Assembly (NCBI GenBank): GCA_947087265.1
Contig: CAMUBY010000007.1
Span: forward strand, 2,758 to 66,757
Source: an uncultured Clostridia bacterium
GTDB taxonomy: Bacteria > Bacillota > Clostridia > Christensenellales > Borkfalkiaceae
Direction: 5' to 3'
Length of the DNA: 64,000 bases
In this document: positions 33,767 to 57,951 of the stretch, piece after piece
Layout: each line of letters begins with the position of its first letter
How positions within the stretch are numbered: position 1 is the stretch's first letter
Program-made: the position numbers and the translations under genes
Notes under the pieces: model-generated
What the model saw: only the letters and a program-made list of their open reading frames with translations
Told to the model about the DNA's origin: nothing
The model's database searches: none

Positions 33767-34222
33767 TTATATTTCGATACAAAGACAAATTTTCGAGGTC
33801 TTCTCTCTCGGAACTTTCATTTCGCCCTTTTCCGTCCGAACGGTTACCGTTTCTTCGTCGAAAGCGGTAAGCACACCCTCGTAAAGTTTCCTGCCCTCGT
33901 AAGGCGCATAGAAATGCAGTTCGATTTTGTTTCCGAGATTTTTTTCAAAATCGCGCGCCGTTCTGAACGGGCGGTCTAACCCTAACGACGAACAGTTGAG
34001 CGTATAACCTTCGCCGAACGTGGGGTCGAACCCGTCGAGCGGTTCGTCTATCCTGCGGTGAAATTTTTCGCAGAGATTGAGGTCTACTCCGCCCTCCACG
34101 TCGATATACAGCGTGAGAGATTTGGTACGCATATCCCACTGAGCGTCGACAAGTTCCACGCCGACTTCCTCCGCAAACGGACGGAGAAATTCAACCGTTT
34201 CCGCAATCGGTTTTGTTTTCAT
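33767..34222 (-). CDS. rimP: Ribosome maturation factor RimP
   Basis: 151 aa upstream of nusA, with LTLYID-type N-domain motifs. Confidence 0.9.
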   Translation of the reverse strand: MKTKPIAETVEFLRPFAEEVGVELVDAQWDMRTKSLTLYIDVEGGVDLNLCEKFHRRIDEPLDGFDPTFGEGYTLNCSSLGLDRPFRTARDFEKNLGNKIELHFYAPYEGRKLYEGVLTAFDEETVTVRTEKGEMKVPREKTSKICLCIEI

Positions 34223-38231: not shown

Positions 38232-38717
38232 TTACATAATACTCGCTTTGATTTGTTTTAGTGCCGTTTTTTCAAGACGCGAAACCTGCGCCTGCGAAAT
38301 CCCGACTTCTGCGGAAATTTCCGTCTGCGTCTTTCCTTCGTAATAACGGAGAGTGAGAATTTTCCGCTCCCGCTCGGTGAGTCTGTGAATCGCCTCTTTG
38401 AGTGCGACGCGCTCCGTCCAGATTTCGTCCGACTGCGATTCGTCGCACAGTTGGTCGAGAAGTTGCAGCGTATCGCCCGATTTGTTGTATACGGGTTCGT
38501 ACAGAGAAACGGGGTCGGAAATCGCGTCTAACGCATAGACGACTTCGCGCTCCTGCACCTGCATTTCGTTTGCGATTTTCTGAATAGTCGCCTCTTCGTC
38601 GCGTTCTTCGATTGCCTCGCGGACTTTTAAAATTTTATACGCGGTATCTCGGATGGAACGGGAAACGCGCAGGGAATTCCCGTCCCGCAAAAAGCGTTTG
38701 ATTTCACCGAGTATCAT
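38232..38717 (-). CDS. sigG: 3' segment (residues ~96-256) of a split sporulation sigma factor SigG gene
   Basis: It begins MILGEIKRFLRDGNSLRVSRSIRD, the region 2.4 onward of SigF/SigG-type sigmas, and ends with the region 4.2 motif GISQAQVSRLEK. Regions 1.2-2.3 are missing here and are found at 47957..48253. Confidence 0.9.
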   Translation of the reverse strand: MILGEIKRFLRDGNSLRVSRSIRDTAYKILKVREAIEERDEEATIQKIANEMQVQEREVVYALDAISDPVSLYEPVYNKSGDTLQLLDQLCDESQSDEIWTERVALKEAIHRLTERERKILTLRYYEGKTQTEISAEVGISQAQVSRLEKTALKQIKASIM

Positions 38718-38741
38718 GGGAATAACGCTTGTATGTTGAAA
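38702..38741. repeat. Recombination junction (host half-site + GG core + element half-site with a 15-bp terminal inverted repeat)
   Basis: The plus strand reads tttcaccgagtatcatg GG aataac GCTTGTATGTTGAAA. The last 15 nt (38727-38741) are the exact reverse complement of 47949-47963. Confidence 0.8.
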
Positions 38742-38804
38742 ATTTATCCCGTTCAGTATATTTACTCTACCACAAAATCATAAAAAAATCAAGCATATAA
38801 ATAC

Positions 38805-38836: not shown

Positions 38837-38875
38837 CATGTTCGGGAATTGACAGGCGTTTATAAAACACTTCGC

Positions 38876-41197
38876 TTATATGCCTATCGACTCCCAGCGT
38901 GGTATGGTTTTATCAAGTTCCAAAATATTTAATATCTCATACGTCTTTTTGGCATATTTGTCGGCTTCGGCCCGGTTGCCGAGTTTTGCGTTTGCAGTAG
39001 AAAGCATCCTGTACGACTGCGCGGCGTCGCGCTGCGTTTCGCCCACCGAGCCCGCAAAAAGTTCAAGCGCGGAGTGTGCGTAGTTGATTGCTTCGGAATA
39101 TTTTTTCATGCGTATACAGGCAAAAGCCATTGCGTTTATGCAACATGCCTTGGCAAAAGCGAACGAGCACTTTTCGCAAAATTCTATGCTTTTATTCAAG
39201 TAATCAAAACTTTCGTCAAATCTGTCGAGATGTGCAAGGTCAAGCCCGACGTTATAATGCGCCCATGCAAGTTCGGAATAGTTGTCGGGGAAGTGATTCG
39301 TGTCGATATCGACTTTTTTCATAAAATATCCGAGTGCTTTGTCGTATTCGGCATCCATCCAATAATACCAGCCGAACAGCGGCGAAAGCCAGGACGTGCG
39401 TTCCAACCTTTCCGATTCGGTAAAACCGTCTCCGCGTAAAATCCGCTCGGCTTCCGTCATATGTTTATACAGCCCTTCCCTATCCTCTTTGCACCTGTAC
39501 GCAGTACAAATCTCGATATGCGCTCCGTAGCGCTGCTTCGGACTTATCGAACCGCTAGCAAGATACTCGCCGAACACCCCGATAACTCTGTCGTGCCGCG
39601 AAAAATGCTGAAATACTTTTGCGGTCTCGGGCAGCCATTCCGCATACAATGCGGAAGAACGCGGCATAAATTTCAGCAAGCGTTCGGTAACGTACAGCAA
39701 CCATACGTTGCGGTCAAACGTTCCGAAACGCGACGACGGAAAATACATGGCCGCAAGCGAACGAACGAAATCCCCCGATACGTCGTCCTGAAAAGGCATT
39801 TTGGTCAAACATAAGTCTTGCACGATGGGGTGCAGCGATATGTAATCGGTAGCGTTGTTATGCAAAATCCAATTTTTACTGATGAGCGAGTCTATTTCGT
39901 CGTAGCTTTTCAGTTTGCACATATCGTAAAAATCCATTGCCTCCACCCCCGAAACGGGTACGAAAGCAAGGTTGTACAAAACGCGTTTTTCTTCTTCGCT
40001 CAGTCCGGCAAGATTAAACATATCGGTGATGACGTGCTTTGCTTTTTCTTGCCCGTCGTCTATGCTGTCGAGCACTTGTACCGTGCTTAGTTTCAAATGT
40101 TCGAGCATGTCGGCGGGGCGTATGCGCTTATCTTTCATCATAGTGGAAATAAGGCGGATAGAAAGCGTATGCCCCGAAAGCAGCCTAATCATTTCCATTA
40201 CGGTTTTTTTGTTTTGCCCGTCCAATTCACGCGGATAGCCCTTTGTAAAGAGTTCAAACAGTTCGTCGTCGTTGTCGATACAGTCGATTGCGTAATTATT
40301 GACGCTCCGCGCGATTCTCGTTGTAAAAATAATACTCATCGGCAGGGCGACAATCTCTTCAAAATACGGGTCGTTTTGCACGTTGTAGTCGTCTACGATA
40401 AGCAAATCGTCCTCTACCGCATTCTCGCGCAAAAATTCGTACTTGCGCTTATAATAAACGTTAACGTCCTCGTTGACGCCCTTGGAAAACCCGCTGATTC
40501 GCACGTTTGCGTCCGACACAAGCAAATCTTTCAAATCCGAGCCGTAAGTCGCCCACGAGACCGACCTGAATTCGTTGCGGAAATTCACCGCAAATTTGCG
40601 CACCGTTTGACTTTTGCCGATACCGCCCATACCGCTTACGAATATTTTTTTGTTGGTTTTCAGAAAATCGAGCAGCTCTGCCTGCTCGCGTTTTCTGCCC
40701 ACAAAATACGAAACGGGAGTGATTGCACTCGAAACAATGCGACGTTCGGCATCACTTGCCGTAAAATTGTTTAATACAAAATTAGATTTCGCATAAATTA
40801 CGCGTTCGCACAAATCATCGATTTTCTCGCCGATAGGCGGTTCTTTGCCGTTAATGCGGTGAAAGCGCCCCAAAAAATATTGCACCGTGTCGTTTACGGG
40901 ATAGTCATCCGTCTGAAAAATAATGAGTTCCATGCTCTTTTCCCTATAACGGTTAAACGCCGCATGAATTTCGTTTTTTACGTGCTCGGACTGCATGGAC
41001 CCCTTATTGATTATCAACAAAAATATAGACGCTTTGTTTAACGCCACCATGATGGCTTCATCGAAATTTCCTTCGCAATCACGGGGCGCATACCAGCACG
41101 ACACCCCTTTGCTTTCCAACTTTGTGCCGATTTCCGCCACAATTTCTTTCGCGGTGTTGGTATGGTACGAAATAAATACGTCTCTTTTGTCGTTCAT
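38876..41197 (-). CDS. TIR - NB-ARC/STAND P-loop NTPase - TPR protein (candidate anti-phage/abortive-infection sensor)
   Basis: The N-terminal TIR has DVFISYHTNTAKE...SEHVKNEI (conserved Glu). Walker A is VSGMGGIGKSQT and Walker B is LLIVDDYN. The C-terminal ~200 aa contain TPR-like repeats (AWAHYNVGLDLAHLDRFDESFDYLNKSIEF, AAQSYRMLSTANAKLGNRAEADKYAKK). An AGGAG RBS precedes the start. Confidence 0.85.
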   Translation of the reverse strand: MNDKRDVFISYHTNTAKEIVAEIGTKLESKGVSCWYAPRDCEGNFDEAIMVALNKASIFLLIINKGSMQSEHVKNEIHAAFNRYREKSMELIIFQTDDYPVNDTVQYFLGRFHRINGKEPPIGEKIDDLCERVIYAKSNFVLNNFTASDAERRIVSSAITPVSYFVGRKREQAELLDFLKTNKKIFVSGMGGIGKSQTVRKFAVNFRNEFRSVSWATYGSDLKDLLVSDANVRISGFSKGVNEDVNVYYKRKYEFLRENAVEDDLLIVDDYNVQNDPYFEEIVALPMSIIFTTRIARSVNNYAIDCIDNDDELFELFTKGYPRELDGQNKKTVMEMIRLLSGHTLSIRLISTMMKDKRIRPADMLEHLKLSTVQVLDSIDDGQEKAKHVITDMFNLAGLSEEEKRVLYNLAFVPVSGVEAMDFYDMCKLKSYDEIDSLISKNWILHNNATDYISLHPIVQDLCLTKMPFQDDVSGDFVRSLAAMYFPSSRFGTFDRNVWLLYVTERLLKFMPRSSALYAEWLPETAKVFQHFSRHDRVIGVFGEYLASGSISPKQRYGAHIEICTAYRCKEDREGLYKHMTEAERILRGDGFTESERLERTSWLSPLFGWYYWMDAEYDKALGYFMKKVDIDTNHFPDNYSELAWAHYNVGLDLAHLDRFDESFDYLNKSIEFCEKCSFAFAKACCINAMAFACIRMKKYSEAINYAHSALELFAGSVGETQRDAAQSYRMLSTANAKLGNRAEADKYAKKTYEILNILELDKTIPRWESIGI

Positions 41198-41242: not shown

Positions 41243-41998
41243 TTACCGTTGTGGAAAAACCTCATGCAGTTGAAATTCCAAAACTTTTTTATACGGCGAA
41301 TCCTTTTCGTTTGCAAGCCATGCAAAAGCTGACGGAACGTTCAGACAAAATCCTTTTCCGAAGTATTCATACACTGCCCGATGCGACCCGCCGAACGGAC
41401 GGGCGGTCACCTTTTTCACATTCTCCGACACGGATAAGTGATGATTGCGGGAAGAATTTCCGTTCAGAAGTGATTTGCCGTTATCGAAAATCGGAGCCGA
41501 ACGATAATTCCCTTCCCCGTCCATAATAATGCCTAAATTATGAAAGTGCCTGTCTTCGTTGAGAATGATATAATCGAGCGTAAACACCTTTTTGAAATAA
41601 TCGAACAAATCAAGCCCTGTAACTTCCTTTACAAAACGCAGAACAAACGCAACTCTGTTCTGAATATCCGAATATCCCTTGATTGCTTCATATAACGGAA
41701 CGCCGGCAACGTTTGTATATAACCGTTCCAAAGTAATAAACGACTCGTCGGCGCCTAAAAAATTCTTACTCCGACAGCCCTTTCTGCCGTTAATTTTTCC
41801 CTGCTCGTAAATAACGTACTCGTTCGGGCGCAAATCGGAAAAATTCAGCAACTGCGAAACAAGATATTCCACTTCCCCTTCGCGCTCGACGTTATCTTCC
41901 TTATACCAATAGCCCTCGTGAAAATACTTTAACTGCGTTCCGTCGCTCGTACCTTGCGTATCGACAAGAAATTCTTCCCCGATTTTGATATCAAACAT
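41243..41998 (-). CDS. HipA C-terminal-like Ser/Thr kinase domain protein (stand-alone, HipT-like)
   Basis: DYIILNEDRHFHNLGII matches the HipA catalytic N-x-D-x-H-x-x-N loop and is followed by APIFDNG. At 251 aa it lacks the HipA N-terminal domain. It overlaps the upstream HTH gene by 8 nt. Confidence 0.7.
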   Translation of the reverse strand: MFDIKIGEEFLVDTQGTSDGTQLKYFHEGYWYKEDNVEREGEVEYLVSQLLNFSDLRPNEYVIYEQGKINGRKGCRSKNFLGADESFITLERLYTNVAGVPLYEAIKGYSDIQNRVAFVLRFVKEVTGLDLFDYFKKVFTLDYIILNEDRHFHNLGIIMDGEGNYRSAPIFDNGKSLLNGNSSRNHHLSVSENVKKVTARPFGGSHRAVYEYFGKGFCLNVPSAFAWLANEKDSPYKKVLEFQLHEVFPQR

Positions 41999-42569
41999 AT
42001 CTGTTCCTCGTTGCTACGTCCGCCCAAAATAATTGTTCCCCGTCAAATTGAAACCAAAGAAAATCATTATAGGAAACCCCGTGCGTCTTTTTTACAATCG
42101 ATAACGGGTCGTAATGGGCAATTCCGAGTTTTTGCAGAATCTGTGCCAATCCGTCGCGGTTTTCTTCCCAGCACCGCCGTTTCAAAATTTCGGAAAGCGC
42201 CACAATGTCCATTTTTTCTTGATTAAAAATCTGCTTTACAGGGTGCTGAACAAACCTCTTGACGCGCACGACCGAACCGCTCACATAAAACTCGGATACA
42301 GGCTCGTCTTTCCAATAACAAATAGCGTGTAACCCGTCCCAGCGTTTCAGATAGTCGGGGCGGACGTCGCTTTCTTTGATTGCAAATTCCAAGGACAATG
42401 CCTCTGCAAGTTTTTCAAGCGTCGCCAAGTTCGGATTCACCTGTCCGCTTTCGATTCTTCCGATTGTAGATTGCGGAATACCGCAAAGCCTTCCAAGTTC
42501 GGCTTGGGACATTCTCCGCTTTTTCCGTTCCCGAATCATTTGATTTAGTAAAATGCTTTTCGTTGCCAT
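41991..42569 (-). CDS. XRE-family HTH protein with an extra ~125-aa C-terminal domain (candidate HipB/HipS-like partner)
   Basis: The HTH is MSQAELGRLCGIPQSTIGRIESGQVNPNLATLEKLAEAL. An uncharacterised C-terminal domain follows. It is translationally coupled to the kinase gene. Confidence 0.7.
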   Translation of the reverse strand: MATKSILLNQMIRERKKRRMSQAELGRLCGIPQSTIGRIESGQVNPNLATLEKLAEALSLEFAIKESDVRPDYLKRWDGLHAICYWKDEPVSEFYVSGSVVRVKRFVQHPVKQIFNQEKMDIVALSEILKRRCWEENRDGLAQILQKLGIAHYDPLSIVKKTHGVSYNDFLWFQFDGEQLFWADVATRNRYV

Positions 42570-42645
42570 ATTGCTTCACCATTATCATAATAGCACAAAT
42601 GCTATTATTTGTCAAATGGTTTGCAAAAAATAATATCTTAAAAAG

Positions 42646-44124
42646 TTAATTTTGGTTCAATACAATTTGCTCGTATTGCGTCTTATTCAGAACAACTTTC
42701 ATACGACCCGACGTAAGCACTACGCGCTCGACAAGTTCCCGAATAATATTTTGTTTTTCAACGTCCGTCATGTTCCGCCAAGTGTCGGGAAGCGTTCTGA
42801 GCATTCGTTCCTGCTCTTCGATTTTTCTCGCAATCGTCTGTTTTTCCTGTTCCTCCGCCATATCCCGCTCTATGCGTTTTCTGTCTTCGTTGAGAGTCCC
42901 CGCCTGGTCGAGCAATTTTTCATCGCCCAACTTTTTGTAAGCGTGAATTAGCCGATTGTATTCGATGTCTAATGCGTCGATTCTTTTTTGTAACCCTGCA
43001 ATAATATCTTCTCCGTTCATAACGCGGTATTTTAACTCATCGCGGTATTTCACGGCAAATTCCATAATCGTGCCGATAACCGCCTGCTCCACTTCTTCCG
43101 CATCGTAAACGATATTCGGACAATTAGAATCTTTCACCAAATAATGCTTGGTGGAGGGATACCTGGAATAACACAAAATTTTCAACGTTTGTTTCTTGCC
43201 TCTCCCCCATTTCATGTAACGCATTTTTGCGCCGCAGTTACCGCAATAAACGAGTGAGGATAAAAGATAATGCGAATCTCCGCGTTTAGCCTTTCGTTTT
43301 TGTAAAATTTCCTGTGCTTCCTTAAAAGTTTCTTCATCGATAAGCGGCGCGTGTTTGCCCTGATACTGTTCTCCGCGGAAAGTGATTTCACCGAGATACG
43401 TGCGGTTTTTTAGGATACCGAAAACAACCACGTCGCTGGAAAGCCCCAACCGTTCTGCAATTTGCCTCGGAGAATATTCGTTTGTATTATACAGTTCAAA
43501 AATCTTTCTGACTATCGGCGCTTTTTCGGCGTCGGGAATCAGATTATTTTCAGCCTTTGAATAAATATACCCGAACGGAGCAATACCTCCCCCTTTCCAA
43601 AACCCGTCTAACGCACGCTGCCTTCTGCCGAGCGTCAGTTTTGATACGATTGCGTCGTGGTCAAACTCCGCGAAAATGGACAAAATCGAAATCAAAATTC
43701 CGTAAGTTTGTTTGCTTCGGGAATCGATACTGTTCTTCAATGCCAGATACTCGCAACCCGCGCTGACGCACTTTTCTTTCAAAAAACGCAGAATCAGCAT
43801 TTGCGTTCTGCCGATACGGTCAAGGGTATAGGTAATAACCATCTTTATTTTACCCTTTTTCATGAGTTCCAACATTTTCTGATAAGCGGGTCTGTTTTCA
43901 TTCATTCCCGTATAGCCGTCGTCGATAAATACCACGGGATTACTCATTTCATAAGCCGTGCAGTATTTTTCGAGCGCAGCGTATTGAACGTCTAAACCGT
44001 AACCGTCTTTGGCTTGCGAATCCGTGGAAACTCTCAAATACAAAGCCGTAATGTTATCTAATTCATCGCCGATTTCGTCATAAATCGGATATGAAAATTT
44101 GATTTGTTTACTTGTTTCTTTCAT
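42646..44124 (-). CDS. Large serine recombinase (resolvase catalytic domain + recombinase domain + zinc ribbon + coiled coil)
   Basis: The catalytic ALYLRVSTDSQ motif is present. The recombinase domain shows GGIAPFGYIY. The zinc ribbon is CGNCGAKM...CPN. The C-terminal coiled coil includes RIDALDIEYNRLIHAYKKLGD. The architecture matches SpoIVCA/SprA/phage integrases. Confidence 0.9.
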   Translation of the reverse strand: MKETSKQIKFSYPIYDEIGDELDNITALYLRVSTDSQAKDGYGLDVQYAALEKYCTAYEMSNPVVFIDDGYTGMNENRPAYQKMLELMKKGKIKMVITYTLDRIGRTQMLILRFLKEKCVSAGCEYLALKNSIDSRSKQTYGILISILSIFAEFDHDAIVSKLTLGRRQRALDGFWKGGGIAPFGYIYSKAENNLIPDAEKAPIVRKIFELYNTNEYSPRQIAERLGLSSDVVVFGILKNRTYLGEITFRGEQYQGKHAPLIDEETFKEAQEILQKRKAKRGDSHYLLSSLVYCGNCGAKMRYMKWGRGKKQTLKILCYSRYPSTKHYLVKDSNCPNIVYDAEEVEQAVIGTIMEFAVKYRDELKYRVMNGEDIIAGLQKRIDALDIEYNRLIHAYKKLGDEKLLDQAGTLNEDRKRIERDMAEEQEKQTIARKIEEQERMLRTLPDTWRNMTDVEKQNIIRELVERVVLTSGRMKVVLNKTQYEQIVLNQN

Positions 44125-44266
44125 TTTTTCTCGGCTTCGTTTGCTTGTTTCTGTAATACACTCTGTTTACGATTTCGCTGACAAGCGGGCTCACGCAAAT
44201 ATACTTCTTCACGTCCTCCGAAGTAAGTTCTTCTTCCCCCATATATACCGTTATTTTTTCTACCAT
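44108..44266 (-). CDS. Unlisted 52-aa ORF overlapping the recombinase start (candidate accessory/directionality factor or leader)
   Basis: Read by hand: GAGGGGGGAG RBS, then ATG (44266), encoding MVEKITVYMGEEELTSEDVKKYICVSPLVSEIVNRVYYRNKQTKPRKNERNK. Its stop overlaps the recombinase ATG region by 17 nt. It is below the 60-aa ORF-track cutoff. Confidence 0.4.
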   Translation of the reverse strand: MVEKITVYMGEEELTSEDVKKYICVSPLVSEIVNRVYYRNKQTKPRKNERNK

Positions 44267-44324
44267 TTACTCCCCCCTCTTTCTTTCTTCTCTATTTTGA
44301 TTAAAAATAAACATTCGGGAAAGC

Positions 44325-44381: not shown

Positions 44382-45086
44382 CTATTTGTCAAATTTTAAG
44401 ATGTCGTCCATAACATACAAAAATTTTCCGTTCCCTAATGAATACTCTTCATATCTAAAAACGAAAATATCATATTTTTCACTTTCGATTTTCGCCTGAC
44501 ACTGTATCAAGTTTATTCCGGTATCGGGGGCGAGAGCGATTTGCTGTTTATAATTAATAGAAAAATCAGGATATGTTTCCGACACAAAACTGCTGTCTGT
44601 TTCAAAATCTTTATAGTCGTATTTTTGATTAACGACTATCATTAACTCTAAACTATAATAGACTTCTATATTCGCCACGTTTACGTTTAGCGAATAATAT
44701 AAATCATCTCCGCTTACGGAATCGTAATATCTTTTAACCGTTGAAACGTTCTCTTCCGAAAGATTTAACATCAGATTTTTGAGCGCGCCCGACAATTCCG
44801 CAAAATCCGACTCGACCTGAACGAAATTGCTTTCGTCATAATAATTGTCATCCAAATTATTATTTGCAAACGGGACTAACTCAATCAGCAATACCGCAGC
44901 CACGGCGCAAGCCACCACTGCCGACGGAATCGCCCACACGAACTTGTTTCCGTTCCTCTTCGACCGGGAGCGGTTCTCTTCCTCAACAAAAAGTTCCAAA
45001 CGCTGTAAAAGTTCGTTGTCTTTGTCGGTCTGAATGGATTGTAAGTCCTTTTCTGATTCTTTTTTTAAGAATTTCTTTGTATTCAT
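44382..45086 (-). CDS. Single-pass membrane protein (possible anti-sigma/sensor partner of the ECF sigma)
   Basis: Charged N-terminal ~45 aa, one TM helix (FVWAIPSAVVACAVAAVLLIELVPF) and an extracytoplasmic C-terminal domain. It is the last gene of the XRE-sigma-peptidase string. No recognisable zinc anti-sigma motif is present. Confidence 0.55.
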   Translation of the reverse strand: MNTKKFLKKESEKDLQSIQTDKDNELLQRLELFVEEENRSRSKRNGNKFVWAIPSAVVACAVAAVLLIELVPFANNNLDDNYYDESNFVQVESDFAELSGALKNLMLNLSEENVSTVKRYYDSVSGDDLYYSLNVNVANIEVYYSLELMIVVNQKYDYKDFETDSSFVSETYPDFSINYKQQIALAPDTGINLIQCQAKIESEKYDIFVFRYEEYSLGNGKFLYVMDDILKFDK

Positions 45087-45090
45087 AATC

Positions 45091-45888
45091 CTAATAAATA
45101 TTTATTGCATATGCGTCGTCGATGTTTGTTTTGTAATCGATATCATAATATCCGTTGGATTTAAATGGATAACCCGATGCAACCGTTATGTATTGATAGA
45201 AAGCGCTTCCAGACGAACTTAATTCGTAACTGGTTTCTCTGTAACCGAACCCCACCATCACGTGATTGCCGGTAGATTCATAATAATAGATTGAATCAGT
45301 GTTTTCATCTGTATAAATATCAGCTACATTATATCCGCCGCAGAACAGAACGATAGGTTGGTTATATTCCATAAATGCTTTCGCCAAAGCATAATCGAAT
45401 TTTTTATTTTTCATAACGGAAGTAAAACTGATGCTCTTACCCATTCTGTTGCAGTAAGCAATCATTCCGTTCGTAAATTCTCTGACTGTTGTTCCGTCGT
45501 CGTCCGTCCCCATATCATTGTATAACTGCCTGACCACTTCGGTAACGGCATCGCTTGCGCTGTTATAAATAAACTGACCTTGGAACACAAATCCCGAAGT
45601 ATGGTTGGGAATTAAATTTTCATCGTATCTGTCGAAATAACCGATGATATTCGCGCCCGCCGTACAAGCGCAGTCGCCTAAGCCGACACTCTCGGTATAA
45701 TTCGGATGTTTGAGTACCATTCTGTACTCGTTTTCGTCTTTATTTTCATAATTGACCCTAACGGTTGATGCCGCATAAGGGGACATTCCGTCGTCGCTGT
45801 AAGTACTTTCTTGCACGGCAATTCCGCCCATGAAGAAATTTGCACCGCCCATAATTGCCATTAAGGCAACAGCCAAAAATTGTTTCAT
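45091..45888 (-). CDS. Secreted papain-fold cysteine peptidase-like protein
   Basis: A signal-peptide-like N-terminus (MKQFLAVALMAIMGGANFF) is present. The candidate nucleophile is in GDCACTAGANIIGYFDRY and the candidate His in TGNHVMVGFGY. The start is moved to the ATG at 45888, 6 nt after GAGGTG. Confidence 0.55.
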   Translation of the reverse strand: MKQFLAVALMAIMGGANFFMGGIAVQESTYSDDGMSPYAASTVRVNYENKDENEYRMVLKHPNYTESVGLGDCACTAGANIIGYFDRYDENLIPNHTSGFVFQGQFIYNSASDAVTEVVRQLYNDMGTDDDGTTVREFTNGMIAYCNRMGKSISFTSVMKNKKFDYALAKAFMEYNQPIVLFCGGYNVADIYTDENTDSIYYYESTGNHVMVGFGYRETSYELSSSGSAFYQYITVASGYPFKSNGYYDIDYKTNIDDAYAINIY

Positions 45889-45942
45889 ACAATTCACCTC
45901 ATTTGTTTGTTATATTTATAGACGGAAAAATGAGGCGAATTG

Positions 45943-46443
45943 TTACAAATATTTTTTCAAAGTTTTATACGCTCTGCTTACTTTTGTGCGAATGCTTATG
46001 TAACTTATGTTGAATTCGTTTGCCAATTCTTTCAGGCTGTAACCTTCCCAATAATGTAAATATAAAATCTCCTGCGTTAAGTCATCTAAATTCAATAGCG
46101 CTTTTTTCACATCGATATTTATGATTGTATTTTCTATATCGAATTTTGCAGCCACTATTTCATTCAATTCGATTTCTTCATGCTTTCCCCTCAAAATATC
46201 AATTGTATAATTATCTGCTAACTTATATAACCACGTCGTAGGATACTCAACATAATCCGGGGTTTTCATTTCTAATAATTTCAGGAATATATCATGCGCA
46301 ATATCTTCAGGATTGATTAGTTTTCCAAAACGCCTTTGAATATGTGCCTTCAATTTCAAATAGTAGTCTTCGTAAATAGATTTTACTGCATATTTGTTAT
46401 ATTTAATTTTCCCGATTAAGTAATTAAACTTTTGTGCATCCAT
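45943..46443 (-). CDS. ECF-type sigma-70 family sigma factor
   Basis: Region 2 shows PEDIAHDIFLKLLE and region 4 shows LHYWEGYSLKELANEFNISYISIRTKVSRAYKTLKK. It is 166 aa. Confidence 0.8.
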   Translation of the reverse strand: MDAQKFNYLIGKIKYNKYAVKSIYEDYYLKLKAHIQRRFGKLINPEDIAHDIFLKLLEMKTPDYVEYPTTWLYKLADNYTIDILRGKHEEIELNEIVAAKFDIENTIINIDVKKALLNLDDLTQEILYLHYWEGYSLKELANEFNISYISIRTKVSRAYKTLKKYL

Positions 46444-46459: not shown

Positions 46460-46801
46460 TCAGGTATTTAAGTAACTATCCACATGAATCATAACTGCTT
46501 CCTTTTGTCTCTTATTCAGTATCCGAAACTTATCTAAAAGCTGTTTTGTTTCCCCTGTTAAAACAGTGACTTCTTCTTCGTTACACAACAACTCCGCAAC
46601 AGTTATATCAAATGCGTAGCATAATTTTTCAATCGCTTCAAGGCTGGGCGTGTAATTTCTCGCCGAATACCAGTTACGGATACACGCTTCGGTTAATTCC
46701 GCTTTTTGCGCCAAATCATAAATAGACATGCCTTTGGCTATCATGAGTTCTTTGATTTTTTGCTTCACTTTTATAATTAAAACACTATTATTTGTAGTCA
46801 T
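46460..46801 (-). CDS. XRE-family HTH transcriptional regulator
   Basis: The HTH is MSIYDLAQKAELTEACIRNWYSARNYTPSLEAIEKLCYAFDITVAELL. Confidence 0.8.
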   Translation of the reverse strand: MTTNNSVLIIKVKQKIKELMIAKGMSIYDLAQKAELTEACIRNWYSARNYTPSLEAIEKLCYAFDITVAELLCNEEEVTVLTGETKQLLDKFRILNKRQKEAVMIHVDSYLNT

Positions 46802-47388: not shown

Positions 47389-47928
47389 TTATCTGATTTC
47401 CACTTCAATTTCGGTAATAATCTTTTGCTTTGACTTTTTGTACGGAGTAAGTCCGCAAACGGAAAGCAACTTTTCCCAGCGGGAAATTCCGTTCCGCCGC
47501 ATGATTGTCTGAATACAACAAATAAGTTTTCTATTCCTTCTTGCATTAAAGTCGGTTTTAGAAAACGGCTTCAAACGGTTATATTCCGCAATAAATTCTT
47601 CTAACGAAGCCCCTTTCGCGCATTTATGTATGCTTGTTCCTTGTGCATATTCCGTCGGATAAAACTGCTTCATCCAAGCGGTATAAGTCGTTTGGAAACG
47701 GTAGTCGAATATTTCAATATACGGAAGCCCGTTTTTCCCGAATTCCTTTGAGCTTGGCAGCCGACCGTTCTTTACAAGAAACTCGTCGATTGCCTTGTTA
47801 ATTCGTTCTTCCGTCCATTTGCACCGCGGATGAACACGGATATCAGAATTTTGTTTTTTTGCCGATTTGGGTTCGTTTTCTGCATCTGATTGCCCGATTT
47901 TCGCCGATAATGCCTGTTTTCTAGCCAT
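47389..47928 (-). CDS. 179-aa basic protein with two helical repeats, the first gene inside the element (candidate DNA-binding/recombination directionality factor)
   Basis: An AAGGAG RBS lies 7 nt before the ATG at 47928, which is only 21 nt inside the element terminal repeat. Two related segments are WTEERINKAIDEFLVKNGRLPSSKEF and SLEEFIAEYNRLKPFSKTDF...ISRWEKLLSVCGL. There is no room for its own promoter. Confidence 0.6.
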   Translation of the reverse strand: MARKQALSAKIGQSDAENEPKSAKKQNSDIRVHPRCKWTEERINKAIDEFLVKNGRLPSSKEFGKNGLPYIEIFDYRFQTTYTAWMKQFYPTEYAQGTSIHKCAKGASLEEFIAEYNRLKPFSKTDFNARRNRKLICCIQTIMRRNGISRWEKLLSVCGLTPYKKSKQKIITEIEVEIR

Positions 47929-47948: not shown

Positions 47949-47988
47949 TTTCAACATACAAGCATATTTGGCACGGCATAGGTTGAAA
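47949..47988. repeat. Recombination junction (element half-site with a 15-bp terminal inverted repeat + GG core + host half-site)
   Basis: The plus strand reads TTTCAACATACAAGC atattt GG cacggcataggttgaaa. The first 15 nt are the exact reverse complement of 38727-38741. Confidence 0.8.
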
Positions 47989-48253
47989 ACTTTACGTTGA
48001 AATCGAGGTTAAAGTTGTCGATTGCCTTGATAAGCCCCACGCAGCCCGCCTGAAATACGTCGTCCGCGTTAGAATTCTTCGCCCAGAACCGTTTGACGAG
48101 CGAGAGCACCAACCGCATATTTCCGACGATAAACGCTTCGCGCGCTTTTTCGTCGCCCTTTTTCAGCCGCCTCATCAGTTCGTCGTTTTCCTTTGCCGAG
48201 AGCTTGGGAAGCCCCGACGTATCCACTCCGCAAATGACTACTTTCTGTAACAT
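47951..48253 (-). CDS. sigG: 5' segment (residues 1-95) of the split sporulation sigma factor SigG gene, plus 5 element-encoded codons and a stop
   Basis: MLQKVVICGVDTSGLPKL (SigG-type N-terminus), NMRLVLSLVKRF (region 2.1) and DDVFQAGCVGLIKAIDNFN...KFSTYAVP (regions 2.2-2.3) are followed by NMLVC-stop. A GGAGG RBS precedes the start. Confidence 0.9.
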   Translation of the reverse strand: MLQKVVICGVDTSGLPKLSAKENDELMRRLKKGDEKAREAFIVGNMRLVLSLVKRFWAKNSNADDVFQAGCVGLIKAIDNFNLDFNVKFSTYAVPNMLVC

Positions 48254-48399
48254 ACACTCTTACCTCCTATGTACACGCCTTAGATTAAGAGTTTTTGCAA
48301 AGGACGGAAATTTATGCGGAACCACAGAGTACCATTCGGAGGCATAAAAAATTTGTATTATTTTGCCGAAACGCCTCTCTTTTGCGCGAAAAAACCAGC

Positions 48400-52393: not shown

Positions 52394-55159
52394 TCATACT
52401 TTCTTATCGCTGTTTACGTTTTTATTCTTGCGCTTGAAGAACGTTACGATATCTTTCCAGCGCAATTTTCTGATTGTTATATCCGCTACGACGAGCACGA
52501 CGCTGAATATCATGAGCGGAATTGTGAAATCGAAGCGGAACGAAGTGTGTTCGAGATTATCAACACTCAAATCTACGACGCCGTCCTCCGAAATCTTGCC
52601 CGTCGTCACAAGCCGATACAGATTCCCGACAGAATACGAAGCAAAACCGTTGTATTCGGGATAGTACGAAATAGAGAACGACGAACTGTCTTCATAGCGG
52701 TGCAGGTAACGGCGGTTCGTTTCACTCTCTTCTTCGCGTTCGTTAAAGTCGGGATTGCGCCCGTATTCGTAACGGATAACGACGTCGTAAGTGCCGAGCT
52801 GCGGCGTTTCAAACAACGCCCGATAATCTTCGGTTGCAAACGTAAGCGTTTTCGTCGTCTGCGTACCGTCCGGCGCAGTTAACGTTACTTGAAGCAATGA
52901 ATCGGAGTACACCGCCGCCGTCGTCACAGAAAGTTCGGCATTCATGCCCGAAATTTCCGTTTCGATGATGAGCGGCGTATCGATACTCTCTTCGGGCAAC
53001 GTTGCCAACTTGATATTGTCGAGAATTTTACTGCCAGAAGTATCCGAACCCCAATTCGCCGTCCAATCCGAAGCAATATCGGTCAGAATGGAGACAACCT
53101 TTCCTTTTTCGTAATTCCAATAGGCGTAAATCGGCATTTCTTTGGTGGTAATGCCCGAATCGCGCGAATAGGAAGCGGAAAGCACGACGTTGACGCCGAC
53201 GCCCTCTTTTTCTTTACTGCACCAGAACCCGCGCACGTCCTCAACGGAGGTAATTCCGTTGACGAGCGTTTCATTTTTACGCTTAATGTTAACGGCAAAA
53301 TTTGCGCCTTCCATTTTCAGTTCCGCAGTATCTTCTGCAATGGAACGAATGGTGTAGTCGATTTCGGACTCGCTTTTAATACTTTTATAATACCCTTTTC
53401 CGTTTGCGTTGGGGTTTTCGACAAGCCCTCTCAAGAACGCGTCGTCCTTTGTTTCGGGATATAAGCCGATTGCGGAAATAATCACGTTTCCGCCCGGCCC
53501 CGACATTTCGGCGGCAAGCTGATTACAGTTGTTCGATTCCGAACCGTGCACAATGCCGTCGGAAATCATAATGAGTTCGCGGTTGTGGCAGTCCTCTTCC
53601 TGAATGGCTTTATACGCCTTTTGCATGGCGATGCTGAGGAGCGTGCCGTTACGCACCGTAATGTTGTTGATAGCTTCGATAATCTTCTTTCTGCTCTTCA
53701 ATTTGGTCGGCTCGCAATAGGTAATGCGGTCGCCCGAAAAGCCGACAACCATCACTTTATCGTTTTCGCCGAACACGTTGAGAAGCGAAATTGCCGTTGC
53801 CTTTGCCGCGTCCAATTTACCCGCAAGCCCTTCGCTCGTAGAAATGTCGATGAGCAGGACGATAATTCTTTCGTCCTTTTCGCTCTTGCCCACGTCGACG
53901 GGAAGCATATTGCCGAACCTTGTGAGCGCCTCGTTCGGCGCTTCTTCGCTGAGCGTGTTCTGGATAAACGTATTTCCGTATGTCGTGAGCGTCTTGCCGA
54001 ATTTGGATACCGCCGATTCCAGACAGTCGAGGAAAGTAAGGCTTGCGCCCCAACTGCTCAAATCGAAATTGGAAAGCACGATTTCGTCATAAGCGCACAA
54101 ATCTTCCACCGTGAGAGGAATCTCATAAGGGTTGGTGATAAACGTCACATTCTCCGTGCCGTATATGCGCCTGCCTGCCATCAGGTCAAACTGCGTACCG
54201 CCGATGAAAAGCACGTTTACGTCCTGAGAAACTTTCTGCGTAAAATAGTACGCATTGTTTTCTTCGGTCGTATCGTACTCACCTTGCCCGTCGTCTCCGA
54301 GTTCCAGCCGCACGGTATATTCAAAATTTCCCGCTTCACCGGTATCGAGGCGCATTGTCACCACGTTCAGACCTTTATCGAAGGACGCGGCGGTGCGTTC
54401 CACCCTTTCGCCGTTACGCAGGAGTACGACCCACCCGGGCGTATGCTGCGCGTTGTTGCTGCGTACCAGCACGTTAACTTCTTCAAACTTATCGAGATAA
54501 GTGGATTCCGTCACTTCCACGCCGTCAATCTGTATTTCGTTGACGCTTTCGGGCAGATTGTCGTTGAGATACACCGCGTCGATAATCACGCCGTCGTTTC
54601 TGAGCGCGTTCACGACTTTAACGGTATCGTTTGTGGAAACCGTTTCCACGCCGTCCGTAATTACCACGATGCGTTTAATTACGCCGTCGTCGAAGCGGTT
54701 GCCCGCATAGCGCATGGCGGCGGCTATATCGGTGGCGCTCTGGTCGATGACGGGGTTATCGCCCTCGAACAGCGTTTTCACGCTCTTTCGGCTTTCGCCG
54801 AGGTCGGAAAGCAACGTATAGTTTCTGCCGAACGCAACGACTGCCATGCGAGAATTGCCCGGCATACTCTTTTCTACTTTTTCAATGTATTCGTCCACTT
54901 TATCGAGATTATGATTGGTGGAATAGGAAACGTCCGCCACAACATACACATTGGTTTCCGTAATGACTTTTTGGTACGAAACACCCGAAATTGCAAAGAC
55001 GATACTCGTACAAATAACGAGGTGCAATACACAGGAAAGAATATTGTGCCAGTTCATATTCCGCTTGCGGACCGTGATAATAAACGGAATGAGTATAAGC
55101 GCAAAAAGCGGAATTAAAAGGAATAATAACCAGGGATTATCGAAGTTGATATTGCTCAT
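52394..55159 (-). CDS. Membrane-anchored protein with two vWA (MIDAS) domains and a C-terminal TM helix
   Basis: The BatA-like N-terminal TM region is MSNINFDNPWLLFLLIPLFALILIPF. MIDAS motifs are VVADVSYS and LLIDISTS. The C-terminal hydrophobic helix is PLMIFSVVLVVADITI. The start is set at the internal Met (55159). Confidence 0.75.
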   Translation of the reverse strand: MSNINFDNPWLLFLLIPLFALILIPFIITVRKRNMNWHNILSCVLHLVICTSIVFAISGVSYQKVITETNVYVVADVSYSTNHNLDKVDEYIEKVEKSMPGNSRMAVVAFGRNYTLLSDLGESRKSVKTLFEGDNPVIDQSATDIAAAMRYAGNRFDDGVIKRIVVITDGVETVSTNDTVKVVNALRNDGVIIDAVYLNDNLPESVNEIQIDGVEVTESTYLDKFEEVNVLVRSNNAQHTPGWVVLLRNGERVERTAASFDKGLNVVTMRLDTGEAGNFEYTVRLELGDDGQGEYDTTEENNAYYFTQKVSQDVNVLFIGGTQFDLMAGRRIYGTENVTFITNPYEIPLTVEDLCAYDEIVLSNFDLSSWGASLTFLDCLESAVSKFGKTLTTYGNTFIQNTLSEEAPNEALTRFGNMLPVDVGKSEKDERIIVLLIDISTSEGLAGKLDAAKATAISLLNVFGENDKVMVVGFSGDRITYCEPTKLKSRKKIIEAINNITVRNGTLLSIAMQKAYKAIQEEDCHNRELIMISDGIVHGSESNNCNQLAAEMSGPGGNVIISAIGLYPETKDDAFLRGLVENPNANGKGYYKSIKSESEIDYTIRSIAEDTAELKMEGANFAVNIKRKNETLVNGITSVEDVRGFWCSKEKEGVGVNVVLSASYSRDSGITTKEMPIYAYWNYEKGKVVSILTDIASDWTANWGSDTSGSKILDNIKLATLPEESIDTPLIIETEISGMNAELSVTTAAVYSDSLLQVTLTAPDGTQTTKTLTFATEDYRALFETPQLGTYDVVIRYEYGRNPDFNEREEESETNRRYLHRYEDSSSFSISYYPEYNGFASYSVGNLYRLVTTGKISEDGVVDLSVDNLEHTSFRFDFTIPLMIFSVVLVVADITIRKLRWKDIVTFFKRKNKNVNSDKKV

Positions 55160-57068
55160 AACAATAAACCCCCCAGTCCAGAATAAAAATAACGGCAAGT
55201 ATAATGAGGTACGGCAGAATATCGTCGTAGAAACCGTCCGCATACTCCGAAGTAGGCGTGCCGACTACGGATACGGAACCCGTCGCTACCGAATGGCTCT
55301 CCGACTCGGAAACCCCTGCGTACAACGAATAAACGCGTTCCTTATCGTTCACCGTTGCGGTCAACTCATAGACTCCCGACTCGGTAAGCTGCGTTTCCGA
55401 AACCGAAGACGCGGTCGGAAGCGAAATGCGCGCACCAGAAGGCGCACGGAGCACGAGCGCGGTGCAACCGTGAAGCACGTTAACGGAAAGCGTATCTCCC
55501 GTTTCAAACATCGTTTCGTCCAACACGGAGGGCGAAGAATAACGGTAGAGGTTTCTCATTAAAATCAGACAGTTAATCTGACCCGTAAAGTTGGTATCCG
55601 AAAGATTGAAGGAAACGACAACCTGTTTATCGCCGTTTTCGTTCATTCCTGCAAAGATAAGCGGATTACTGTTGAGTTCGAGAATGCTTGTGAATCCGCT
55701 ACCTACGGCATACTTGGCATATTTATGAACGGTTACCTTTTGCTGTTTGAGGAGATTTTGCATGAACACTTTTTCCTCGGTAGAATTTTGCGGGTATTCC
55801 GTATAACTTGCCTCATAATAGTAGATTCCATCCTCGGACACGTCCATATTCTTATCCTCGTCGGCGTCAACGACTTTCTGAAAACTGAAACCGGACTTCG
55901 GCACGCTCGCCGTTGGATTGATAAGCCAAACCGTTGCGCCTTTCGGAAGTTCCTTAGGCGTGTAGCAGTCGAATATATACAAACCGTACAAATCCGCCTC
56001 GCCTCTCTTGTAAGACGCGTAATAGTCTTCATAGTCCTGCGTGCTCATAACGTCGAGCTGGGTATTACCGATTGCGGTAAGCGCGTAACGCAGATAGGAC
56101 GGAGAATCGCCGACCAGCAACGTAGGAAGCTCATCCCCTGCCGCCGTTTCGTAAAAGAATACCGAATTGTCCCGCATAAAAGAATCGGTATTTTTAATGC
56201 GGAGCTCAAACGAACGGTATTCCGACACGGTGCACATGAAACTGAACGCGGTTTTCATATTTTTCTTTACCGGAACGTCAAGCGAATCGGTAGGCACGTC
56301 TTCTCCGTTCACATAGAGTTCAACGGTGAGCGTAGCGTCGCTTTGATAAGAAATAAGCGAACCCTCCAAAAGATAACCCGCTTTCTCCGTTTCCTTATCA
56401 AACTGTTTTCTCACGGAATAATTGACAATCGCGTAATTTTCCTCGTTTTTGGAAACGTCGATAACTTCGATATTTTCGCTCTCCTCATACGCCTTATCGG
56501 TGACGAAATAAATTTTCGTCGAGGAGTTTTTTTCAAAACACTTCTGCGCTTCGGCAACGGCTTCCGCACAATCCGTATTGCTCCAAGTGCATTTCAAATC
56601 GTCGATTAAAATTTCCGCCGATTTCTTATCGTTGATATTTTCAAAAACGGAATAGGTCGTATCGCCGATAAACACGAGCGCGTAATTACTGCCGCTGCGC
56701 GAACTTTTAATGAGCGATTTGATTTCGTCTTTGGCGCGGTCGAACCGCGTTTCGTTATCCGTTTCGGCGTGCATACTGCCCGTTCCGTCGAGAATAAAGC
56801 AATACTCTCTTGCCGAGTTAGGCAGAACAAAACTCGGCTGAGCGATTGTTATAGAAATCGCAAGCACGATGATAATTTGCAGAATCAAACTGATAATGCC
56901 CGTTACTTTGGAAACGGGTCTCTTGCGTTTCAAAAACTTTTCGCTCAGTTCCCAAAGATAGGTCGACGGAATGACCTGCTCCGTATATTTACTTTTAATA
57001 ATATAAATGAGGATAAGCGCGGGAATGCCGAGCAACCCCAAAAGTCCCAAAGGATATGCAAAACTCAT
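55137..57068 (-). CDS. BatA-like membrane-anchored vWA domain protein
   Basis: The N-terminus is FAYPLGLLGLLGIPALILIYII (aerotolerance BatA N-terminal type). The MIDAS-like motif is ILDGTGSMH. A C-terminal TM helix is present. It has an ATGA overlap with the DUF58 gene. Confidence 0.75.
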   Translation of the reverse strand: MSFAYPLGLLGLLGIPALILIYIIKSKYTEQVIPSTYLWELSEKFLKRKRPVSKVTGIISLILQIIIVLAISITIAQPSFVLPNSAREYCFILDGTGSMHAETDNETRFDRAKDEIKSLIKSSRSGSNYALVFIGDTTYSVFENINDKKSAEILIDDLKCTWSNTDCAEAVAEAQKCFEKNSSTKIYFVTDKAYEESENIEVIDVSKNEENYAIVNYSVRKQFDKETEKAGYLLEGSLISYQSDATLTVELYVNGEDVPTDSLDVPVKKNMKTAFSFMCTVSEYRSFELRIKNTDSFMRDNSVFFYETAAGDELPTLLVGDSPSYLRYALTAIGNTQLDVMSTQDYEDYYASYKRGEADLYGLYIFDCYTPKELPKGATVWLINPTASVPKSGFSFQKVVDADEDKNMDVSEDGIYYYEASYTEYPQNSTEEKVFMQNLLKQQKVTVHKYAKYAVGSGFTSILELNSNPLIFAGMNENGDKQVVVSFNLSDTNFTGQINCLILMRNLYRYSSPSVLDETMFETGDTLSVNVLHGCTALVLRAPSGARISLPTASSVSETQLTESGVYELTATVNDKERVYSLYAGVSESESHSVATGSVSVVGTPTSEYADGFYDDILPYLIILAVIFILDWGVYCYEQYQLR

Positions 57069-57949: not shown

Positions 57950-57951
57950 GA

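What the first reader, a model, noticed from the sequence alone, without database searches (positions are those of the whole stretch)
38702..38741. Junctions show serine-integrase att architecture: 15-bp perfect terminal inverted repeats, a 2-bp shared core and long-attP/short-attB half-site geometry
The low junction on the plus strand reads tttcaccgagtatcatg-GG-aataacGCTTGTATGTTGAAA (38702..38741). The high junction reads TTTCAACATACAAGCatattt-GG-cacggcataggttgaaa (47949..47988). The element ends are exact reverse complements over 15 bp. When the junctions are aligned, the only shared bases at the crossover are GG (CC on the coding strand, the first two bases of the Pro codon). That fits the 2-bp staggered cut of serine recombinases. 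The reconstructed attP is tttcaacatacaagcatattt GG aataacgcttgtatgttgaaa, with 18 of 21 symmetric positions. The reconstructed attB is tttcaccgagtatcatg GG cacggcataggttgaaa, with 10 of 17 symmetric positions. All four half-sites end in a TTTCA[A/C]C motif. That motif sits 21 nt from the core in the element halves and 17 nt from the core in the host halves. A distal motif placed a few bp further out in attP than in attB is the established structural model for large serine integrases (differential placement of the zinc-ribbon domain).
Basis: seen in the sequence. Interest (0 to 1): 0.8.

Follow-up and report, generated by a model that had tools for sequence, protein, structure and literature searches.

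The report
Serine-integrase island splitting sporulation gene sigG
The two junctions are the hybrid attachment sites of a 9.25-kb mobile island that its own large serine integrase inserted at one codon of the forespore sigma-factor gene sigG; the site layout is textbook, but sigG as a target shared by a whole integrase family appears to be unreported.

Summary
The window holds a 9,251-bp, low-GC island (41% vs 49-51%) inside sigG on the minus strand, at the CC of Pro95. Joining the flanks gives a 256-aa SigG that aligns without gaps to intact orthologs.

The island encodes a complete large serine recombinase (LSR). The only bases shared by the two junctions are GG/CC. Island half-sites are 21 nt and 18/21 symmetric, with a 15-nt perfect repeat at positions 7-21 from the core, so subterminal rather than terminal. 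Host half-sites are 17 nt and 10/17 symmetric.

Comparison supports the serine-integrase reading. In about 30 related loci (LSRs 32-72% identical), every element abuts sigG at the same CC. Twenty-three distinct element arms keep TTTC at -21..-18, and host arms keep T[T/C]TC at -17..-14. T-2 and C-11 stay in one register in both. This 4-bp outward shift matches SPbeta integrase cryo-EM (4 bp); LI and phiC31 show 5 bp.

The architecture is ordinary. The less ordinary points are the target (a forespore gene, whereas known intervening elements sit in mother-cell genes) and two conserved accessory genes. Excision activity, the directionality factor and any developmental role are untested.

The parts
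47972..48253 (-). sigG 5' fragment (codons 1-94). As it stands, the ORF runs on into the island and stops at 47951 (…AVP-NMLVC*).
   Evidence: (Sigma70_r2)
48290..48317 (-). Conserved promoter-like block upstream of sigG (GCATA-N15-GCAAAAACT), also present upstream of intact orthologs. It resembles sigmaF/sigmaG-type promoters; this is an inference.
   Evidence: The consensus is recalled from established B. subtilis knowledge and was not tested.
47972..47988 (+). Host half-site B (17 nt; reads TTTCAACCTATGCCGTG on the coding strand).
47970..47971 (.). Core dinucleotide GG (CC on the coding strand), copy at the sigG-5' junction.
47949..47969 (+). Island half-site P (21 nt, TTTCAACATACAAGCATATTT).
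47389..47928 (-). ORF179, the first island gene. Only 20 nt, holding a ribosome-binding site, separate it from the P arm. It is co-oriented with sigG, and homologues sit at the same position in L037 and L008. No known family.
   Evidence: AF2 pLDDT 44.5.
46460..46801 (-). HTH (Cro/C1-type) regulator.
45943..46443 (-). Small sigma-70-family protein (regions 2 and 4).
44382..45897 (-). Two genes of unknown function (268 aa and 234 aa), followed by a strong terminator at 44330-44361.
44108..44266 (-). Conserved 52-aa ORF overlapping the LSR start codon by 17 nt. Present upstream of the LSR in the 19 related loci examined, with an apparently similar ORF in L021. Candidate accessory or directionality factor.
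   Evidence: AF2 pLDDT 62.
42646..44124 (-). Large serine recombinase, 492 aa: Resolvase 27-174 (the nucleophile is presumably the Ser in YLRVSTDSQ), Recombinase 200-277, Zn-ribbon 287-353, then a C-terminal region inferred to be a coiled coil (not tested).
41243..42569 (-). HTH protein (192 aa) plus HipA_C-like kinase-fold protein (251 aa; PADLOC candidate PDC-M03A), with their own sigma-70-like promoter at 42615..42587.
38876..41197 (-). TIR / NB-ARC-type NTPase / TPR protein (773 aa), a likely anti-phage cargo. Terminator at 38803-38839.
38721..38741 (+). Island half-site P' (21 nt; reads TTTCAACATACAAGCGTTATT on the coding strand).
38719..38720 (.). Core dinucleotide GG (CC of the Pro95 codon), copy at the sigG-3' junction.
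38702..38718 (+). Host half-site B' (17 nt, TTTCACCGAGTATCATG).
38232..38718 (-). sigG 3' fragment (third base of codon 95, codons 96-256 and the stop).

Best explanation
The two junctions are the attL/attR hybrid sites left when a 9,251-bp genomic island was integrated by its own large serine recombinase (LSR, 42646..44124) into the sporulation sigma-factor gene sigG. Strand exchange took place at the CC/GG dinucleotide that forms the first two bases of codon Pro95.

Shown here:
- The boundaries are precise.
- The core is 2 bp.
- The rejoined SigG is intact.
- An LSR with all three domains is present.
- The whole LSR family uses the same sigG position.
- The distal TTTC motif lies at -21 in island arms and at -17 in host arms, while T-2 and C-11 keep one register.

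Inferred from established LSR mechanism:
- Integrase dimers bind each site.
- The recombinase domain reads the inner, same-register positions.
- The zinc-ribbon domain reads the distal TTTC motif, 4 bp further out on island (P-type) arms than on host (B-type) arms.
- That placement sets the coiled-coil geometry, so attP x attB recombines unaided, whereas attL x attR needs a directionality factor.
- Excision would give a 44-bp attP (TTTCAACATACAAGCATATTT-GG-AATAACGCTTGTATGTTGAAA) and restore sigG.

The island is not a prophage. Its cargo is a TIR/NTPase/TPR protein, an HTH plus HipA-like pair, regulators and unknown genes. While it is integrated, sigG is inactive.
For: Sequence and repeats. Host gene: the rejoined 256-aa protein passes the NCBIfam SigG equivalog NF006071 (374.7 vs cutoff 372). 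Intact orthologs are 94% identical and also 256 aa, and they align without gaps at the DNA level. L037 shows a spoIIGA-sigE-[split sigG] operon. Foreign origin: GC 41% vs 49-51%. Recombinase: Resolvase, Recombinase and Zn_ribbon_recom domains and PHROG integrase phrog_95 at 2e-88. Family-wide site: 28 junctions on the sigG-3' side and 5 on the 5' side all lie at CC of Pro95. Identity among four hosts carrying the same LSR ends right after CC. Logo: TTTC carries 1.6-2.0 bits per position at -21..-18 in 23 distinct island arms, with nothing conserved beyond -22. T[T/C]TC sits at -17..-14 in 30 host arms, and T-2 and C-11 are shared. Structural precedent: zinc-ribbon motif shifted 5 bp for LI, 4 bp for SPbeta Int and 5 bp for phiC31.
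Against: There is no direct evidence that this copy is active. The exact empty attB and the exact attP were not found in JGI metagenomes or IMG/VR. No directionality factor was identified. Conservation of the host arms is explained equally well by conserved codons, so recognition of the -17 TTTC is inferred, not shown. Three syntenic relatives (L009, L011, L012) carry the LSR without any sigG fragment within about 10 kb. The nearest structurally solved relatives match only the catalytic domain, so the DNA-binding mode is extrapolated from distant LSRs.
Confidence: 0.88

Rival explanations
1. The same att sites serve a developmentally programmed switch like the skin element, but in the forespore. 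The sigG promoter reads through the sigG 5' fragment into the first island gene (ORF179). ORF179, or the 52-aa ORF coupled to the LSR, acts as the directionality factor. The island excises when sigG is needed and sigG is rebuilt. The non-replicating circle stays in the spore and is re-integrated by the LSR alone at germination.
For: ORF179 starts 20 nt beyond the P arm, with only a ribosome-binding site in between, no predicted terminator, and the same orientation as sigG. Homologues occupy the same position in L037 and L008. The sigG upstream block GCATA-N15-GCAAA[A/C]ACT is conserved with intact orthologs. All 20 sigG 3' fragments that were extracted as ORFs run 162-165 codons to a stop, and no fragment showed disruption in tblastn. 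The LSR clade has kept the sigG site down to 32% identity. The 52-aa ORF is conserved across the family.
Against: Nothing was tested experimentally. No sporulation-type promoter could be assigned upstream of the LSR. The identical LSR in different host species indicates recent horizontal spread, so intact fragments may simply be young. The literature describes intervening elements almost only in mother-cell genes, because forespore excision risks loss from the germ line. ORF179 is absent at that position in the 34%-identity clade (L021).
Confidence: 0.22
2. A selfish island or relic. The element uses sigG only as a highly conserved, vegetatively dispensable landing site. It leaves only for horizontal transfer, if at all, and the host is simply sigG-null (non-sporulating) while it carries the island.
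For: Relatives with the same site include conjugative elements (TraG, VirB4-like, ArdC, TnpV), a sugar-utilisation island and small islands. Identical LSRs occur in several host backgrounds. Many diverse LSRs converging on one conserved gene is a known pattern. LSR synonymous divergence is lower than that of the adjacent sigG in L002-L005, so the element moved after the hosts diverged.
Against: This does not explain the conserved junction-proximal ORF179, which has no promoter of its own. Loss of sporulation should be costly for gut anaerobes that transmit by spores (inference).
Confidence: 0.6
3. A DDE-type transposon: 21-bp imperfect terminal inverted repeats flanked by a 2-bp target-site duplication (GG).
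For: Inverted repeats at both ends and a duplicated dinucleotide would look the same in a single copy.
Against: No transposase was found among the island ORFs of 100 aa or more scanned with Pfam, PHROGs and PADLOC; the only recombinase is the LSR. Insertion is strictly site- and orientation-specific in about 30 loci with diverged end sequences. The best-matching repeat is subterminal, as in LSR attP arms.
Confidence: 0.02

Closest known systems
skin element / SpoIVCA in sigK (B. subtilis, C. difficile and others)
   Same: An LSR-borne element splits a sporulation sigma-factor gene. The recombinase gene usually lies at the element edge, immediately upstream of the 3' gene fragment, as in most relatives here. 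Cargo is highly variable. Excision would rebuild the ORF.
   Different: The target is sigG, which is forespore-specific, not sigK, which is mother-cell-specific. Developmental excision is not shown. In this window, 3.9 kb of cargo sits between the LSR and the junction.
SPbeta prophage / SprA-SprB in spsM
   Same: A large serine integrase with short att sites. Cryo-EM shows DBD2 (the zinc-ribbon domain) 4 bp closer to the centre on attB half-sites, which is the same offset inferred here.
   Different: SPbeta is an active 134-kb phage (size from memory) with a known directionality factor. The element here is a 9.25-kb non-phage island. The LSR is only distantly related: all phage hits are 34% identity or less.
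gin element in gerE (B. cereus ATCC 10987)
   Same: A non-prophage gene-intervening element that carries its own serine recombinase plus a small accessory factor (GirC/GirX).
   Different: gin sits in a mother-cell gene, has a 9-bp consensus at its junctions and three recombinase genes. Here there is a 2-bp core and a single LSR.
Listeria A118/LI integrase att-site model (Rutherford et al. 2013)
   Same: Modular half-sites. The inner recombinase-domain positions are in the same register in attP and attB. The distal T-rich zinc-ribbon motif (TTTAGTATC in LI; TTTCAAC here) is shifted toward the centre in attB, and attB is about 8-10 bp shorter than attP.
   Different: The shift is 4 bp rather than 5 bp. 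The proteins share little beyond domain architecture.
LSR clusters converging on one conserved gene site (Durrant et al. 2022: ComM/Mg-chelatase, prolyl isomerase)
   Same: Many diverged LSRs target one conserved coding site.
   Different: sigG is not among the targets named in that paper's main text. Its supplements were not checked.

Membership tests
Large serine integrase attL/attR sites | The element encodes an LSR with a catalytic resolvase domain, a recombinase domain and a zinc-ribbon domain carrying a coiled coil. | tested here: met
   Pfam PF00239, PF07508 and PF13408 are all above their gathering scores; phrog_95 integrase at 2e-88. The coiled coil was not tested.
Large serine integrase attL/attR sites | A 2-bp, non-palindromic crossover dinucleotide is the only obligatory identity between the sites. 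| tested here: met
   Only GG/CC is shared in the window and in L037. The host/element identity break falls directly after CC in A1. The actual cleavage position was not assayed.
Large serine integrase attL/attR sites | attP is about 40-50 bp with an imperfect inverted repeat; attB is shorter and less symmetric. | tested here: met
   attP is 44 bp with 18/21 symmetry; attB is 36 bp with 10/17 symmetry. The outer limit of conservation is at -21 for island arms and -17 for host arms.
Large serine integrase attL/attR sites | The distal (zinc-ribbon-domain) motif lies 4-5 bp nearer the centre in attB than in attP, with the recombinase-domain register unchanged. | tested here: met
   This holds at the sequence level only: TTTC at -21 vs -17, with T-2 and C-11 shared. 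Protein contacts cannot be tested here.
Large serine integrase attL/attR sites | Conservative recombination restores the target exactly. | tested here: met
   The rejoined gene is 771 nt and aligns without gaps to intact orthologs.
Large serine integrase attL/attR sites | Catalytic activity on these sites, and a cognate directionality factor for excision. | not testable with these tools
   There are two conserved candidates (the 52-aa ORF; ORF179). The AF2 models were too poor to use.
Sporulation gene-intervening element (skin / SPbeta / gin type) | Interrupts a sporulation-specific gene and carries its own site-specific recombinase. | tested here: met
Sporulation gene-intervening element (skin / SPbeta / gin type) | The target is expressed in the terminally differentiated mother cell, so excision does not affect the germ line. 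| tested here: not met
   The target is SigG, the forespore sigma factor. The literature states that almost all known cases are in mother-cell genes.
Sporulation gene-intervening element (skin / SPbeta / gin type) | Excision is induced during sporulation. | not testable with these tools
   This needs a cultured carrier strain or read-level data.
Prophage | Virion structural, packaging and lysis genes. | tested here: not met
   PHROGs hits are limited to the integrase, regulators and a sigma factor.
Integrative conjugative / mobilizable element | Conjugation or mobilisation genes (relaxase, coupling protein, type IV secretion). | tested here: not met
   None were found in the window island. Relatives with 59-60% identical LSRs do carry TraG, VirB4-like proteins, ArdC and TnpV. 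oriT was not searched.

The most novel reading that the evidence does not exclude
sigG-intervening elements form a widespread family in gut Clostridia that performs a forespore (germ-line) gene rearrangement. The host sigG promoter, captured across the attachment site, drives an element-encoded directionality factor (ORF179 or the LSR-coupled 52-aa protein). The element then excises exactly when sigmaG is needed, persists as a circle in the dormant spore, and is re-integrated by the integrase alone at germination. This would be a reversible, self-limiting counterpart of the irreversible mother-cell skin switch.
Probability: 0.18. Interest if true: 0.85.

Novelty: new member of a known kind. 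Interest (0 to 1): 0.55.

Why it matters
For integrase biology, this is a natural series of at least 23 diverged attP arms and 30 attB arms, all built on one core and one geometry (TTTC-N17-CC-N17-GAAA against TTTC-N13-CC-N13-GAAA). It comes with matched LSRs ranging from 32% to 100% identity. That makes a ready-made data set for learning recombinase-domain and zinc-ribbon-domain recognition rules, and a source of orthogonal integrases.

For sporulation biology and gut-microbiome ecology, a sigma-factor gene essential for the forespore programme is a recurrent landing pad for conjugative elements and for defence and metabolic islands. One LSR allele is seen on hundreds of contigs. Either many gut Clostridia are conditionally asporogenous because of these elements, or a forespore-specific rearrangement exists that contradicts the mother-cell-only rule. 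Both outcomes can be tested.

Tried and rejected
- **Empty site and circle junction.** Exact-match scans for this element's empty attB (30-mer, JGI metagenomes) and attP (32-mer, IMG/VR) found nothing. The species is probably absent from those sets, so the result is uninformative.
- **Best 'phage' hit.** MT839977 turned out to be another LSR plus sigG-3' contig, not an excised circle.
- **dN/dS of split sigG fragments against LSRs.** Most pairs are saturated at synonymous sites. The L002-L005 group only shows that the LSR is younger than the host divergence. This cannot tell a functional split gene from a recent insertion.
- **Promoter assignment upstream of the LSR and small-ORF pair.** No convincing sigma-70 or sporulation-type promoter was found, only a conserved ATGTTTATTTTT block of unknown meaning.
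- **AlphaFold2 models.** The 52-aa ORF reached pLDDT 62 and ORF179 reached 44.5. Both are too poor for fold searches, so none were run.
- **PDB sequence search.** It matched only the catalytic domain (TP901-1 Int, TnpX).
- **Literature.** Seven full-text searches found no paper describing a sigG-interrupting element. Only open-access papers and bioRxiv are covered.
- **DDE transposon with a target-site duplication.** Considered and rejected; see the rival explanations.
- **sigG 3' fragment carried by the element itself.** Rejected because the fragments diverge with the host while the LSR stays identical.

Full report
**Observation.**
They are the top-ranked inverted repeat of the region. The 15-mer TTTCAACATACAAGC occurs only at these two places in the 64-kb window, in inverted orientation, even when 2 mismatches are allowed. 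In 3000 random placements of two 100-bp windows 9.25 kb apart, the longest perfect inverted repeat was 12 nt or less, apart from one 15-nt case that presumably fell on the real pair.

GG lies at 38719-38720 and at 47970-47971, and the neighbouring bases differ, so 2 bp is the only shared core. The symmetry counts (18/21 and 10/17) and the TTTCA[A/C]C ends at 21 nt and 17 nt are correct. Their chance probabilities are about 9e-9 and about 0.003-0.005. One refinement: the perfect 15-nt repeat is subterminal, at positions 7-21 from the core, and the six terminal bases match only 3/6.

**What is interrupted.**
On the minus strand, 48253..47972 encodes a sigma region-2 fragment and 38717..38232 encodes regions 3-4. 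Joining them at the CC gives a 256-aa protein. It passes the NCBIfam SigG equivalog (NF006071, 374.7 vs 372) and scores far below the cutoffs for SigF, SigE and SigK.

Intact orthologs annotated SigG are 94% identical and also 256 aa. Their genes are 771 nt, as is the rejoined gene, and they align without gaps: GCCGTT-CCC-ATGATT against GCCGTG-CCC-ATGATA. In relative L037 the split gene follows spoIIGA and sigE, the canonical operon. The junction falls in the FSTYAVP|MI(L/I)GEI motif.

**What is inserted.**
The insert is 9,251 bp with 41% GC, against 49-51% in the flanks. All genes are co-oriented with sigG. In order they are:
- ORF179, of unknown function
- an HTH regulator
- a small sigma-70-family protein
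- two genes of unknown function, followed by a strong terminator
- a 52-aa ORF that overlaps the start of the next gene
- a 492-aa large serine recombinase (LSR) with Resolvase, Recombinase and Zn_ribbon_recom domains
- an HTH plus HipA_C-like pair with its own promoter
- a TIR / NB-ARC-like / TPR protein

There are no virion, conjugation or transposase genes. It is a small island with a defence flavour, not a prophage.

**Comparative test of the att interpretation.**
The LSR has hundreds of relatives in Clostridia metagenome-assembled genomes.
- Of 22 genome loci retrieved with it, 18 carry a sigG fragment.
- All 11 loci fetched through five further LSR homologues carry one too.
- So does the best 'phage' database hit, which is really a host contig.
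- In 28 junctions on the sigG-3' side and 5 on the 5' side, the element meets sigG at the same CC of the Pro codon. This includes LSRs only 32-34% identical.
- Four contigs carry an identical LSR in different hosts. They are identical up to and including CC and diverge from the next base onward. This is a natural mapping of the element boundary.
- In the window and in L037, CC is the only identity between the two junctions.

**Position-specific conservation.**
- In 23 distinct island arms, TTTC at -21..-18 carries 1.6-2.0 bits per position, and nothing beyond -22 is conserved.
- In 30 host arms, T[T/C]TC occupies -17..-14.
- T at -2 and C at -11 are conserved in the same register in both sets.

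This is what the modular LSR model predicts: the recombinase domain keeps a fixed register, and the zinc-ribbon domain is displaced toward the centre on attB. The reported shift is 5 bp for LI integrase (PMC3783163) and phiC31, and 4 bp for SPbeta integrase by cryo-EM (PMC11722253). The 4-bp offset here therefore has direct precedent.

Caveat: the host-arm motifs are also dictated by conserved Phe-Ser and Gly-Glu-Ile codons, so their recognition by the integrase is inferred.

**Mechanism.**
The boundaries, core, geometry, LSR and precise restoration are shown. The following steps are inferred from LSR biochemistry. attP x attB integration at the CC produced the present attL and attR. Excision needs the LSR plus a directionality factor, and would yield the 44-bp attP and an intact sigG. 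While the island is integrated, sigG is inactive.

1. The sigG site is a family-wide target for very different cargos:
   - conjugative elements with TraG, VirB4-like proteins, ArdC and TnpV, where one LSR allele is on 578 contigs
   - a sugar-utilisation island
   - a 4.4-kb mini-element
   - this defence-type island
2. A conserved ORF of about 45-79 aa lies just upstream of, or overlapping, the LSR start. It was found in all 19 related loci examined. An apparently similar 55-aa ORF sits upstream of the LSR in L021, of the 34%-identity clade (judged by eye). It forms a small orphan family.
3. ORF179 starts 20 nt beyond the P arm, preceded only by a ribosome-binding site. Homologues sit at the same place in L037 and L008. 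It can hardly have a promoter of its own inside the element, and is most simply transcribed from the sigG side. The conserved GCATA-N15-GCAAA[A/C]ACT block upstream of sigG resembles forespore-type promoters. That resemblance rests on remembered consensus sequences and was not tested.

These features motivate the hypothesis of promoter capture and forespore excision, but they do not prove it.

**Literature.**
Known intervening elements sit in sigK, spsM, spoVFB, spoVR, gerE, kamA, yabG, cotJC and spoIIID. Authors stress that almost all are in mother-cell genes. Seven full-text searches, a 2026 prophage review and the main text of Durrant et al. 2022 gave no report of a sigG-interrupting element. 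Subscription-journal papers and supplementary tables were not covered.

**Verdict.**
The architecture itself is ordinary for LSRs, so this is a new member of a known kind. The added value lies in the conserved sigG target, the clean natural series of att sites, and the two conserved accessory genes. Activity, the directionality factor and any developmental role remain untested.

Noticed in passing
window 47389..47928 (-); L037 2499-3293; L008 12238..11699: ORF179, the first island gene, begins 20 nt after the P arm with only a ribosome-binding site in between. It has 31-35% identical homologues at the same junction-proximal position in two other sigG elements. It has no Pfam, PHROG or PADLOC family. 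It may be driven by the sigG promoter.
   Followed up: partly
window 44108..44266 (-), and upstream of the LSR in L001-L016, L027, L031, L037: A conserved small ORF of about 45-79 aa (…ITVYMGxxELxxEDxKKYICVSxxVxEIVNxVYYR…) sits just upstream of, or overlapping, the LSR start. It forms an orphan family of 14 representative clusters and is a candidate accessory or directionality factor.
   Followed up: partly
L027-L030, L034-L036: One LSR allele (P0038; P0041 is near-identical) sits at the edge of conjugative elements (TraG, VirB4-like, ArdC, MT-A70, TnpV) inserted in sigG of several different host backgrounds. It is seen on hundreds of contigs, so this looks like a very common gut conjugative element that splits sigG.
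   Followed up: partly
L009, L011, L012: Three syntenic loci (about 90% nt identity) carry a 56-57% identical LSR gene among housekeeping genes, with no sigG fragment within about 10 kb. This may be a relic, a domesticated copy or a different target.
   Followed up: partly
window 38876..41197 and 41243..42569 (-): The cargo is a TIR / NB-ARC-like NTPase / TPR protein and an HTH plus HipA_C-like pair (PADLOC candidate system PDC-M03A). These are likely anti-phage or toxin-type modules with their own strong sigma-70-like promoter at 42615..42587.
   Followed up: partly
upstream of the small ORF: window about 44300-44320 (-); L002-L007: A conserved ATGTTTATTTTT(T) block lies about 45-50 nt upstream of the small-ORF/LSR pair, usually just after a terminator hairpin. 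It matches no promoter consensus that I could assign.
   Followed up: no
window 33820..33863 (+): The only other window match to the attP-like geometry TTTCNNC-N14-SS-N14-GNNGAAA. About 0.1 matches are expected by chance and 10% of shuffles have one, so it is probably coincidence.
   Followed up: no
window 52394..59088 (-); L028/L029 13.9-21.5 kb: A MoxR / DUF58 / BatA-VWA / VWA gene cluster lies near sigG, both in the window (upstream) and in unrelated carrier hosts (downstream).
   Followed up: no
L038 (GenBank MT839977.1): A 5.9-kb record labelled 'Bacteriophage sp.' is actually a bacterial contig with an LSR followed by the sigG 3' fragment, so it appears to be mislabelled.
   Followed up: yes
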